64,000 nt of DNA from Hormiphora californensis (lineage: Eukaryota; Animalia; Ctenophora), in contig CM035355.1 in assembly GCA_020137815.1 (NCBI GenBank), positions 4,278,001 to 4,342,000 on the forward strand, given 5' to 3'. The first letter of the stretch is position 1. Each line of letters opens with the position of its first letter. A program made the position numbers and the translations under genes. Positions 7,285 to 35,044 of this stretch are shown piece after piece. Under the pieces are notes generated by a model. The model was given only the letters and a program-made list of their open reading frames with translations, did not search any database and was not told where the DNA came from.

Positions 7285-7774
7285 TTTATGCGGAGGCAAC
7301 TCAAATTTACAAAGTGCGCTGCGCTATGAACGCCGCGCCGCGCTAAATTCGAAATCGTGAAAATTTCAAACTGAAACTTCACAAAATTTCCACGAAACAA
7401 AAAGTTTGAACGCCACGGATTTTGTTCCAAAAATCAGAAATCGCGATCACGTTCGTCCTCCGTGGCGGTCGTAGATGTTAATATTGGCATATTAAATGGT
7501 CATTAGCTGAAAATGAGCATATAATGATGTGTTTTATGCTTAAGGTGATATTGCAGACCTTTGCATGGTGCCCGACGAGCCTTCAGGCCAAAATTTATGC
7601 CAGTATCTGACTCAGAATCGAAAGTTAAACTGTAGCGACACGATGCCAAAAGTACTCTCCTGCCTTTTGTTGTTCAACGTAGGTTATGTTAATTGTTGCC
7701 GACTAAGAAAGAGATTCAATGTGAGACCTTTTTTTCAATGGAACCCCAATTCTTAATTCCTCAATTTTCTAGCC

Positions 7775-8246
7775 ATGTCTGAACAGACAGAGAGGGCTTT
7801 CCAGAAGCAGGCGGGAGTCTTCCTGAATAAGAAGCGCCAAGTCGGAACCAAGTCCGGAAAGGACATCCGATGGACTAAGAACGTTGGTCTGGGCATCAAG
7901 ACCCCAGTTGAAGGCCATCCAGGGAACCTACATCGACAAGAAGTGCCCCTTCACCGGAGATGTTGCCATCCGAGGACGTCTGCTCAGGGGAATCGTCAGG
8001 AGCATGAAAATGAAGAGGACCCTCACCATCCGACGGGACTACCTTCACTACATCAAGAAGTACAACAGGTTCGAGAAGAGGCACAAGAACATCTCTGCTC
8101 ACGTCTCACCTGCCTTCCTTGATCTGAAACAGGGAGATACCGTGTTGGTCGGACAGTGCAGGCCCCTCTCCAAGACGGTGCGATTCAACGTGCTGAAGGT
8201 GATCGCCACGGCCGCTTCCGACAAGAAGAAGTTCGCAAAGTTCTAA
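7775..8246 (+). CDS. RPS11: 40S ribosomal protein S11 (uS17), intronless; +1 indel near 7912 likely an assembly error
   Basis: [12 protein letters not shown]... and, in a second frame, [15 protein letters not shown]...[19 protein letters not shown]...[17 protein letters not shown]. Confidence 0.95.
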
Positions 8247-33300: not shown

Positions 33301-35044
33301 TAGCTCCTGAAATGCTACTACCCTCCAGTAAAATCTCCCACGCAGTAGATGTCTTCAGCTACGGGTGTATCATGTACTATGTGCTAAGTGAGGGACAACA
33401 TCCGTTTGGAAATGATGTATTCAGGAGGCAGAATAATATCCTAAACAATGATTATGATCTAAGTGAGCTATCTGCACAGACCCAAGGTTGGTGAACACCC
33501 CCCTCCTTATCTATCGGCTTATGTTCCCCTTCTCTCTCTGTTTTGTGTAGCCTGTTTGAAGTGTAACAAAGATCTCCCCTCAGATAATGTCCTGGCTGCG
33601 TCGTTGATAGTTCAAATGGTGGGTTCAAAAGACAAATACAACCGTCCGACCTCTACCGCTATCTACATGCACCCCTACTTTTGGTCGGCTGGCAAAATAC
33701 TCCGCTTCTATTCGGTAAGAGTACATTTCAATCTCTCTCTCTCACTCGCTCTCTCTCTCTCTCGCTCTCTCTCTCTCTCTCTCTCTCTCCCTTACTCACC
33801 AGTACACACCCTGTACAGTGTACTCTCTTTCCTCTCTGAACAAGTATCTTGTACCCACTTCCCCCAATCTCAACCCCCTCAAACCTCAACCCCTCCCTCA
33901 GGACGTGTCAGATAGAGTTGAGAAAGAGGAAACCTCAGACCTGGTCCTGCGGTGGGAGCACAACTCCCCAGGCCCTGTTCTCCGAGGGGGCTGGATGATA
34001 CATTGCCCTGAGCTCCAGAACGACCTGTACAAGTACAGGAAATACAAATCTGCCTCAGTACGGGATTTACTACGGGCAATGAGGAATAAGCGACATCATT
34101 ACCGGGAGTTACCAGTTGATGTTCAGGAGAGTCTTGGTGATATACCGGATGGGTTCCTGATGTATTTTAGTAGCAGATTCCCACGACTCCTTCTTCATAC
34201 CTATACCATCATGTGGCAGTGTAGGAAGGAGAGCATTTTCAGGGCCTACTACCCAGAGGTAAGAGCTAACTTGTTTGTTTGTGATGTGTCTGGAGGATGA
34301 CCTGCCCAACCACGCCTTTTCTTTTTGATCATCCCCGTGCTAAGCCCTAACAAGCTAGTTTTCATACAAGAACAATGACAATCCATTAATTAGAACCCAG
34401 ATCTCTAATCCCCCTCCCTCCAGGTTGCGACCTATACAGAACAACGCCAGGCTGATGGCGAACAATCCCGTCTCCCTGTGGCACTGGACTGTGATGGAAA
34501 ATACTCGACCGAGGAAAGAGTCCCAGACTACTCCTACACCATCGAGCGACGACAGAAACGGAAACAAAGGACCGTTCATACAATTGATTTTAAACCCACT
34601 TCAGAACTTTCCGCACGTGTACCAAGCCGTGAACCGACCCCTGAACCCCCACCAAAACAATCCCTGGGAGAGGTTGCCACATTGAAAAACAAGTTCGGCC
34701 TCCTCGAAACTCACACTACAGACTCAGAAACAGAGAACACACCCCCTCGACCACCCTCATCCACCTCCGGCCGGAAATCACGGTCCTCAAATAGCCGCTC
34801 CTCAAACAGATCATCTCCAGCACCCCCAAATCGCGCCAGTATCTCCCCCGCTGCTGTACCTCCTCGTGTTACTATATCACACTCCCCTCCCCCTGGATTC
34901 GAACAACCTAAAGCGAGGGAGGGTAAGCCATGGTTTGAGAGCTATGAACTGACTCCTGGGTATGGGGGATCGGCAGTTGAGAGTGTAGGACCAGAGGGGC
35001 TGATTCATAGGAACCCTAGGACTTATCTTGTGCCAGAAATGTAA
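27378..35044 (+). CDS. ERN1: IRE1 Ser/Thr kinase/endoribonuclease; ~16 exons, start uncertain
   Basis: Luminal [10 protein letters not shown]..., [23 protein letters not shown] near 31880; kinase [42 protein letters not shown] RNase [17 protein letters not shown]. Confidence 0.95.
27691..28105 (+). repeat. Six copies of an IRE1 exon 3' end + donor interspersed with (tag)n
   Basis: gtacgctgtcaatagaggatctat(a/c)gaggtaaacaggggg at ~27691, 27766, 27849, 27953, 28003 (partial), 28063. Confidence 0.9.
28188..28320 (+). ncRNA. Box H/ACA snoRNA, copy 3 (IRE1 intron)
   Basis: Same family; TAGTTA pocket variant; 133 nt before the 3' splice site. Confidence 0.75.
28725..29173. mobile_element. MITE in an IRE1 intron
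   Basis: TIR ggggttcaggat.aa.tggt.cggacgtatatgcc / ggcatatacgtccgaccacttaatcctgaacccc. Confidence 0.75.
30204..30235 (+). ncRNA. 5' fragment of the H/ACA snoRNA family
   Basis: ttgcatccgagagttgtgccagcttattagct, then a poly-G break. Confidence 0.55.
30351..30927. mobile_element. Non-autonomous DNA transposon with 9-bp TSD (Mutator-like by TSD length)
   Basis: Imperfect TIR TTGGTTACGAAGTCACCCCT / AGGGGTAATTTCATTACCAA; TSD TTGCATCCG (30342-30350, 30928-30936). Confidence 0.85.
30929..31061 (+). ncRNA. Box H/ACA snoRNA, copy 4 (IRE1 intron)
   Basis: Same family; 68 nt before the 3' splice site. Confidence 0.8.
32862..32993 (+). ncRNA. Box H/ACA snoRNA, copy 5 (IRE1 intron)
   Basis: Same family; 64 nt before the 3' splice site. 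Confidence 0.8.

What the first reader, a model, noticed from the sequence alone, without database searches (positions are those of the whole stretch)
7740..35044. Ten co-oriented housekeeping genes with very short spacers and an acceptor site before most ATGs: candidate eukaryotic operon with SL trans-splicing
Seen: stop-to-ATG gaps are RPS11-COG5 120 nt, COG5-TSEN34 93, ORF-RPS3A 177, RPS3A-MUL1 296, MUL1-ORF 222, ORF-BECN1 365 and BECN1-POLR2B 316. Branch/pyrimidine/AG motifs sit just before ATGs: ttttctAGccATG (RPS11), tgtttAGtATG (COG5), CTAAC..ctctctctAGctctctccATG (TSEN34), TTAACccccaactAGgaATG (RPS3A), CTAAC..gttatatAGccATG (MUL1). No AATAAA was seen in the spacers after RPS11, COG5, the first ORF or RPS3A. 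Established: SL trans-splicing resolves polycistronic RNA in several animal groups and SL RNAs are reported in ctenophores. Inference: a ~27-kb polycistronic unit that also hosts the snoRNA array.
Basis: partly seen in the sequence, partly recalled or inferred. Interest (0 to 1): 0.75.

Follow-up and report, generated by a model that had tools for sequence, protein, structure and literature searches.

The report
Candidate operon in a comb jelly
Ten genes of a comb jelly lie head to tail on one strand, the RNA of one in the middle (RPS3A) begins with the ctenophore spliced leader, and several of them are likely copied as one long RNA that is then cut into separate messages, which would make this a ctenophore operon.

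Summary
The layout is real. All seven quoted gaps and the AG sites check out. The DNA is from a Pleurobrachia comb jelly. SL trans-splicing is shown for RPS3A: contigs of 4 of 4 RNA runs start at its AG, and the one leader displayed equals the Hormiphora SL. It is inferred for RPS11 and was not seen at the other eight starts, most of which lacked cover. Two corrections. TSEN34 is probably nested in the last intron of COG5. The first unknown ORF is probably TSEN15, the partner of TSEN34. Upstream RNA ends 75 nt or less before the COG5 AG and 96 nt or less before the RPS3A AG, which favours polycistronic transcription. But at least 56% of Hormiphora cDNA reads carry an SL, so acceptors alone prove no operon, and no promoter data or bridging molecule was obtained. 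Operon of several genes: about 0.6. One promoter for all ten: about 0.25. The scan noted similar clusters in other genomes; none of the listed notes names a ctenophore.

The parts
7285..7480 (+). CpG/CGCG-rich patch, candidate promoter at the head of the cluster (inferred)
   Evidence: 10.2 CpG per 100 nt, 7 CGCG/GCGC; 0 such words in the nine spacers
7771..7772 (+). Trans-splice acceptor AG of RPS11 (inferred)
   Evidence: Contigs of X1, X2, X3 start at 7771 with 19 extra letters, not displayed (table 8)
7775..8246 (+). RPS11 (uS17), intronless; one extra base near 7911-7913 in this assembly; poly(A) at 8288
   Evidence: Pfam; base absent and A-tail behind 8288 in RNA
8364..8365 (+). Predicted trans-splice acceptor of COG5, 75 nt after the RPS11 poly(A) site
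   Evidence: Score in top 2% of window AGs; no SL seen in the rows displayed
8367..13052 (+). COG5, 7 exons; a shorter form would stop at TGA 11653-11655
   Evidence: Both models translate openly; Pfam COG5_N and COG5_C; joint 11651-13046 GT..AG in one X1 contig, X2 contig starts at 13046
11239..11366 (+). C/D-box-like snoRNA candidate in COG5 intron 5 (motif only)
   Evidence: ATGATGA...CTGA pattern; no Rfam match
11739..11740 (+). Predicted trans-splice acceptor of TSEN34 with CTAAC branch motif
   Evidence: Top 1% of window AGs; no SL or 5'-end contig in the rows displayed
11749..12249 (+). TSEN34, intronless, nested in the last COG5 intron on the same strand
   Evidence: Pfam tRNA_int_endo; Sen34 chains rank above Sen2; 96% to a P. 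bachei protein
12265..12935 (.). MITE-like repeat inside the last COG5 intron
   Evidence: Self-matches to 6167-6855 and between its two ends; ends read by eye
13046..13216 (+). Last COG5 exon (two codons, stop, 3' UTR; RNA reaches at least 13216)
   Evidence: only 9 of 4,074 other AGs score as high as acceptor 13044
13274..14041 (+). ORF1, likely TSEN15 with a long insertion; AG at 13271-13272; RNA reaches at least 14118
   Evidence: 7 homologues; TSEN15 chains rank first in Foldseek and VIA-align, Sen15 clusters first in the Atlas
14215..14216 (+). Trans-splice acceptor AG of RPS3A (shown)
   Evidence: 4 of 4 runs start here with 20-24 extra letters; the X2 letters equal the 3' part of the published SL
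14219..14998 (+). RPS3A (eS1), intronless; RNA ends at about 15034-15036
   Evidence: Pfam
15295..16299 (+). MUL1, intronless; AG at 15291-15292
   Evidence: Pfam GIDE and RING; named homologues; 5' end not covered
16522..17103 (+). ORF2, likely protein-coding, no known family, no clear acceptor
   Evidence: 7 of 9 displayed RNA differences at third codon positions plus a 3-nt deletion; no homologue found
17469..19150 (+). BECN1, 4 exons; two tandem acceptor-like sites at 17391 and 17448
   Evidence: intron 3 splice seen in X4; 5' end not covered
19467..26647 (+). POLR2B, 10 exons; nearest AG at 19396; one extra base in exon 3 in this assembly
24562..32994 (+). Five near-identical 135-nt H/ACA-like elements in POLR2B and ERN1 introns (24562, 25371, 28187, 30928, 32862)
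   Evidence: 96-98% identical; two-hairpin fold in 2 of 5, 3' hairpin in 4 of 5, ACA near the end; no Rfam match
27281..35044 (+). ERN1/IRE1, 18 exons; candidate AG at 27263
   Evidence: Exon translations; Pfam kinase and Ribonuc_2-5A; not examined in RNA

Best explanation
RPS3A RNA carries the ctenophore spliced leader at the AG before its start codon, and several genes of this cluster are likely transcribed together as a polycistronic RNA that is cut at each 3' end and re-capped by leader trans-splicing. Proposed steps: (1) Pol II starts in the CpG-rich patch near 7.3-7.5 kb (inferred). (2) RPS11 gets the SL at 7771 (inferred from three runs) and is polyadenylated at 8288 (shown). (3) The downstream RNA is rescued by SL addition at the next unpaired AG, 75 nt on for COG5 (predicted). 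(4) At the end of COG5 the RNA either cis-splices 11651 to 13046 and removes TSEN34 with the intron (one contig), or ends at the overlapping TGA so that TSEN34 is released by SL addition at 11739 (predicted). (5) TSEN15 and RPS3A follow within 54 and 96 nt or less of the upstream RNA ends. Internal promoters (a hybrid operon) are quite possible, above all before RPS3A and ERN1, and the extent beyond RPS3A is open.
For: SL on RPS3A in RNA and no SL copy in the window, even with 3 mismatches. RPS11 contigs start at the AG in 3 of 4 runs from two studies. Distances from RNA end to next AG: 75, 54 or less, 96 or less, 254, 191 or less, 146 or less, near the roughly 100 nt of nematode operons (PMC7986045 passages). 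No donor-like GT (leave-one-out 10th percentile 5.4) in the RPS11-COG5, ORF1-RPS3A, RPS3A-MUL1 or MUL1-ORF2 spacers (best 2.6, 3.2, 2.6, 3.3). A CGCG-rich patch lies before RPS11 and none in the nine spacers; a GC-rich, CpG-containing motif marks many ctenophore promoters (PMC12221973 passages; I did not see the motif itself). RNA contigs of three runs cover the MUL1-ORF2 spacer unspliced, one from 43 nt after the MUL1 stop. TSEN34 and likely TSEN15, two subunits of one enzyme, are neighbours.
Against: SL is the rule in this group (56% or more of Iso-Seq reads), and 42 of 96 unrelated SL transcripts have the ATG within 10 nt, so AG-before-ATG marks trans-splicing, not operons. No SL was seen at 8 of 10 starts. 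No displayed contig joins two coding regions, and contigs cannot show single molecules. The COG5 joint rests on one contig with 22 letters on the short side, a class the tool flags as unreliable. Ribosomal-protein mRNAs are normally far more abundant than COG5 or TSEN mRNAs (general knowledge), which suggests an extra promoter before RPS3A. The ORF2-BECN1, BECN1-POLR2B and POLR2B-ERN1 spacers hold donor-like GTs (6.1-7.4). CGCG words are rare in introns too (27 of 35 have none), and two CGCG patches are intronic, so their absence is weak evidence.
Confidence: 0.6

Rival explanations
1. Compact cluster of independently transcribed genes. Each has its own promoter, in the spacer or under the end of the upstream gene, and a short outron that is replaced by the SL.
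For: SL is on most mRNAs here, and many non-operon transcripts are trans-spliced in other animals (bioRxiv 10.1101/353979 passages). Four spacers are 296-633 nt long. Expected expression levels differ widely. Other same-strand pairs in the window have 281 and 533 nt gaps.
Against: Only 54-96 nt remain for promoter, outron and branch point before COG5, TSEN15 and RPS3A. No CpG-rich patch lies in any spacer. RNA runs across the MUL1-ORF2 spacer.
Confidence: 0.3
2. The leader is a genomic first exon lying upstream of this window and is cis-spliced onto alternative downstream genes.
For: Hormiphora has 718 genomic leader copies, and reads map as clusters sharing a first exon. Only 7.7 kb upstream of RPS11 is visible.
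Against: No copy in 64 kb. The authors read those clusters as possible mapping artefacts of trans-splicing. Loci with leader followed by a GTAAG donor, i.e. SL RNA gene candidates, exist (L088, L089). This reading would still need one long precursor.
Confidence: 0.05
3. The cluster is a chance run of same-strand genes or of retrocopies, and the acceptors have no common meaning.
For: Five genes are intronless, the run was picked after the fact, and two genes carry an extra base.
Against: RNA matches the coding regions and UTRs at 95-100% and lacks the RPS11 extra base. AG enrichment P about 0.004. The SL is joined at a predicted site.
Confidence: 0.05

Closest known systems
Ctenophore SL trans-splicing and nested intronic genes (Hormiphora californensis, PMC8527503; passages and section 37 read)
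   Same: Identical leader 3' end; transcripts starting at AG; same-strand nested genes (2,357 nested genes reported).
   Different: That text has 0 occurrences of 'operon' or 'polycistron' and leaves the processing of parallel nested genes open. Here short poly(A)-to-acceptor distances point to co-transcription.
SL-resolved operons of chaetognaths (PMC12460157), tunicates and nematodes (PMC7986045); passages read
   Same: Housekeeping and ribosomal-protein genes, short gaps, leader on downstream genes. The longest chaetognath operon has nine genes.
   Different: Different phylum and leader. No operon-specific SL2-type leader could be tested. Only 2 of the 9 stop-to-ATG gaps of the tandem reading exceed 400 nt, but 5 of 9 exceed the 250-nt cut-off used for chaetognaths (there measured between annotated genes).
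Hydra RFC140-flp bicistronic operon (PMC3273482; passages read)
   Same: Non-bilaterian, spacer under 417 nt, U-rich stretch followed by an unpaired acceptor.
   Different: Experimentally proven by reporter and AG mutation; two genes only.
C. elegans hybrid operons and the operon gene nested in an intron of its upstream neighbour (tin-9.2/exos-4.1; recalled, paper not retrievable)
   Same: A choice between cis-splicing out a nested gene and 3'-end formation plus trans-splicing.
   Different: Recalled only. Here the two COG5 ends differ by one residue, and the nested gene is followed by its likely protein partner.

Membership tests
SL trans-spliced genes | Leader joined at an unpaired AG and absent from the locus | tested here: met
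   RPS3A: leader letters at 14215 equal the published SL; no copy in the window. RPS11 by position only.
SL-resolved eukaryotic operon | Adjacent same-strand genes with a short distance from 3' end to acceptor | tested here: met
   75, 54 or less, 96 or less, 254, 191 or less, 146 or less; POLR2B-ERN1 not measured
SL-resolved eukaryotic operon | SL on downstream genes | tested here: inconclusive
SL-resolved eukaryotic operon | One precursor RNA spans two genes | tested here: inconclusive
   Contigs cover the MUL1-ORF2 spacer but none displayed joins two coding regions; only contigs were available
SL-resolved eukaryotic operon | Single upstream promoter, none in the spacers | not testable with these tools
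   Only a CpG/CGCG proxy
SL-resolved eukaryotic operon | Gene order kept in other ctenophores | tested here: inconclusive
   No ORF1 locus in metagenome contigs; contig lengths of MUL1 and ORF1 homologues do not coincide
Same-strand nested intronic gene (TSEN34 in COG5) | Host intron spliced across the whole nested gene | tested here: inconclusive
   One contig with a GT..AG joint, short side 22; a second study's contig starts at 13046; strong acceptor
TSEN15 (Sen15, PF09631), for ORF1 | Sequence match to the family profile | tested here: inconclusive
   No Pfam or PDB sequence hit; Atlas: the three listed named hits for homologue P0003 are Sen15, best 0.85, low recognition
TSEN15 (Sen15, PF09631), for ORF1 | EndA C-terminal fold | tested here: met
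   Model pLDDT 59.6; Foldseek ranks 1-2 are TSEN15 chains, prob 0.75, E about 0.8-1; VIA-align top six are TSEN15 chains, Z 4.8-5.7, rmsd 3.7-4.6, 82-90 residues, next fold Z 4.2; modest scores
H/ACA snoRNA, for the intronic repeat | Two hairpins, H box, ACA tail, rRNA target | tested here: inconclusive
   Fold and boxes fit in part; no Rfam match; no target tested

The most novel reading that the evidence does not exclude
All ten genes form one 27-kb, single-promoter operon in a ctenophore, longer than the longest chaetognath operon. TSEN34 is released from the last COG5 intron by trans-splicing, so a cis-versus-trans splice choice sets its level beside its partner TSEN15. This would also explain how the many same-strand nested genes of ctenophores are expressed.
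Probability: 0.25. Interest if true: 0.78.

Novelty: new member of a known kind. Interest (0 to 1): 0.55.

Why it matters
Ctenophores have pervasive SL trans-splicing, but I found no described ctenophore operon in six searches of the held library. Derelle 2010 and Moroz 2014 could not be read and may mention operon-like clusters. A proven operon would add one of the earliest-branching animal phyla to the lineages where trans-splicing led to polycistronic transcription. It would change how ctenophore promoters and chromatin loops are assigned to genes, and offer a mechanism for same-strand nested genes. It is directly testable with existing long-read and chromatin data. A side result is a likely ctenophore TSEN15 that sequence searches miss.

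Tried and rejected
No genome is held for this window, so no genome-wide gap distribution or synteny. Second RNA lay (14975-19635): 0 of 13 loose ends were SL. Nine were Illumina adapter, three were divergent genomic sequence, one lay inside BECN1. I therefore dropped my first reading of the 17 extra letters after 14118 as poly(A); that place is only a lower bound for the RNA end. An X5 loose end before 7774 is unlike the SL and was set aside as probably another organism's RPS11. One search hid 172 loose ends, 14 joints and 506 pieces. Parts without contig cover are not taken as silent, and depth was not used to rank genes. None of 121 SL-bearing loci from metagenome contigs matched the window. 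ORF2 has no homologue near its length. AATAAA absence was rejected as evidence. Rfam gave only chance miRNA-like hits on repeats. The complex prediction for TSEN34 with ORF1 was not available, so binding is untested; the wide VIA-align search was also not run. Papers not held. No supplements were read; the Hormiphora annotation and supplements may already show this locus.
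Full report
Organism and genes. No genome is held. The TSEN34 protein is 96% identical to a Pleurobrachia bachei entry in EukProt, so the window is from Pleurobrachia; the species is not fixed. Between 7775 and 35044 there are ten + strand genes: RPS11, COG5, TSEN34, ORF1, RPS3A, MUL1, ORF2, BECN1, POLR2B and ERN1 (Pfam; exon models). 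The next exon-like stretches after ERN1 appear to lie on the - strand (read by eye). About 5 kb of repeats lie before RPS11. RPS11 has one extra base near 7911-7913 that contigs of all four RNA runs lack, and POLR2B has one in exon 3. These are likely assembly errors.

The observation. All seven quoted gaps are exact. The two unquoted ones are 1,024 and 633 nt. An AG lies within 8 nt of the ATG in 9 of 10 genes (P about 0.004 against all ATGs). Scored with a model from 35 internal acceptors, the candidate sites of RPS11, COG5, TSEN34, BECN1 and POLR2B fall in the top 1-3.4% of window AGs. Those of ORF1, RPS3A and MUL1 fall only in the top 11-18%, and ORF2 has no good site. The proven RPS3A site scores poorly, so trans acceptors differ from cis ones. 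Six of 9 candidate sites are TAG against 5 of 35 cis sites (Fisher P 0.004; sites chosen by me, ORF2 left out). AATAAA is absent but uninformative.

RNA evidence for the leader. Twenty-two runs were listed and five were laid, all as assembled contigs from marine metatranscriptomes. At RPS3A, contigs of 4 of 4 runs (three studies) begin at 14215, the A of the acceptor AG, with 20-24 further letters. The one displayed, from X2, equals the 3' part of the Hormiphora leader in PMC8527503. The window has no copy of the leader within 3 mismatches. At RPS11, contigs of X1, X2 and X3 begin at 7771, again the A of the AG, each with 19 extra letters that were not displayed. One search showed that loose ends of 15-20 nt in X1, X3 and X4 are often adapter, so this is an inference from the identical start in two studies. 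One X5 contig has an unrelated 32-nt end at 7774 and was set aside. No leader was seen at the other eight starts.

Is it an operon? The leader alone does not say so. It is on at least 56% of Hormiphora reads, and among 96 unrelated SL transcripts with an open frame (of 121 loci) the median distance to the ATG is 12 nt. The argument rests on room. RPS11 is polyadenylated at 8288 (A-tail displayed for X2; an X5 contig ends at the same base), 75 nt before the COG5 AG. RNA of the last COG5 exon reaches 13216, 54 nt before the ORF1 AG. ORF1 RNA reaches 14118, 96 nt before the proven RPS3A site. Later distances are 254, 191 or less and 146 or less. Most spacers run from a T-rich start to a C-rich, G-poor end, and four have no donor-like GT. 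A CpG/CGCG-rich patch lies at 7285-7480 and none in the spacers. Kim et al. (PMC12221973, passages) report a GC-rich CpG motif at ctenophore promoters and intronic enhancers, which fits but was not matched here. Against this: no contig displayed joins two coding regions, CGCG words are rare in introns as well, the later spacers are longer and hold donor-like GTs, and ribosomal-protein genes would normally need more output than their neighbours (general knowledge). I put an operon of several genes at 0.6, separate promoters at 0.3, and one promoter for all ten at about 0.25 (a sub-case of the first).

Correction 1: nesting. One X1 contig joins 11651 to 13046 with GT..AG ends, and an X2 contig starts at 13046. 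Both COG5 forms translate openly and differ by one residue. So TSEN34 and a MITE probably lie inside the last COG5 intron. The support is one contig with a short side of 22 letters, and unspliced RNA across the acceptor is also present. The 93 nt after the overlapping stop look like the other spacers, so both routes may be used. Schultz et al. report many parallel nested genes and leave their processing open.

Correction 2: the unknown ORFs. ORF1 starts at 13274 and has seven homologues at 38-87% identity. It has no Pfam or PDB sequence hit. I noticed a likeness to Sen15 from memory and tested it. The model (pLDDT 59.6) finds TSEN15 chains at Foldseek ranks 1 and 2 among 350,542 chains (E about 0.8-1, not significant) and as the top six VIA-align rows (Z 4.8-5.7). 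The Atlas gives Sen15 clusters first for homologue P0003 (0.85) and nothing for ORF1 itself. Each score is modest, but they agree: likely TSEN15 (about 0.85) with an insertion of some 115 residues. It thus lies next to TSEN34, with which human TSEN15 forms a heterodimer (PDB 6z9u title). One search found no paper linking the two in an operon (listing only). ORF2 is likely coding (7 of 9 displayed differences at third positions, P 0.008) but has no homologue. Contigs of X3, X4 and X5 cross its nearer AGs unspliced, one from 16342, and this stretch holds four upstream ATGs. ORF2 may therefore ride on the MUL1 message or use a far acceptor.

The intronic repeat. Five 135-nt copies, 96-98% identical, lie in POLR2B and ERN1 introns on the + strand. 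They have an H-box-like hinge and a terminal ACA, and fold as two hairpins in 2 of 5 copies. Rfam has no match. H/ACA snoRNA is plausible and unproven; it does not bear on the operon question.

Literature seen. PMC8527503: passages and section 37. PMC7986045, PMC12460157, PMC3273482, PMC12221973, PMC10282587 and bioRxiv 10.1101/353979: passages. Others: listings only. Derelle 2010, Moroz 2014 and the C. elegans nested-operon paper were not held. Searches listed no paper whose title or abstract start describes a ctenophore operon; no supplements were read. Earlier scan notes describe similar clusters in other genomes, mostly without RNA; none exist for this genome.

Verdict. A real, tightly packed cluster in a ctenophore with SL trans-splicing shown at one internal gene. 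It works like the SL-resolved operons of tunicates, chaetognaths and Hydra. Membership is probable but unproven, because the precursor and the promoter were not testable here.

Noticed in passing
window 48334-50090 (-): TIPIN/Swi3 gene followed 533 nt downstream by a same-strand ribosomal protein L11/L12-family gene (Pfam Ribosomal_L11_N): a second possible operon-like pair.
   Followed up: partly
window 54701-55470 (+): Intronless NADAR-domain gene followed after 281 nt by an ATG behind a pyrimidine tract and AG; a large CGCG-rich region (53.4-54.4 kb) lies upstream.
   Followed up: partly
window 32255-32365 and 36150-36330: CGCG-rich patches that appear intronic (ERN1; a - strand gene); candidates for enhancers, loop anchors or internal promoters.
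   Followed up: no
window 31391-31620: A small ERN1 exon is followed by a T/G-rich stretch like the 3' ends of the cluster's genes; a short, lumenal-only ERN1 isoform is conceivable.
   Followed up: no
cluster acceptors: Candidate trans-splice acceptors are mostly TAG (6 of 9), cis acceptors mostly CAG (5 of 35 TAG).
   Followed up: partly
L088 and L089: Full leader followed by a GTAAG donor and hairpins: candidate SL RNA genes; no canonical Sm site found by a simple pattern.
   Followed up: partly
window 35323 and 35428: The only AATAAA words found at a gene end of the cluster come after the last gene, ERN1.
   Followed up: no
window 19623-19910 and 27720-28170: Tandem copies of an exon end with its donor inside POLR2B intron 1 and ERN1 intron 2.
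   Followed up: no
window about 42050-43460: Homopolymer-rich, low-quality-looking stretch, probably raw long-read sequence left in the assembly.
   Followed up: no
window 5851-7283 and 22830-24230: Elements with G/C-run terminal inverted repeats: one just upstream of the RPS11 promoter candidate, one in POLR2B intron 5 with a fragment that looks like the end of a LINE ORF (by eye).
   Followed up: no
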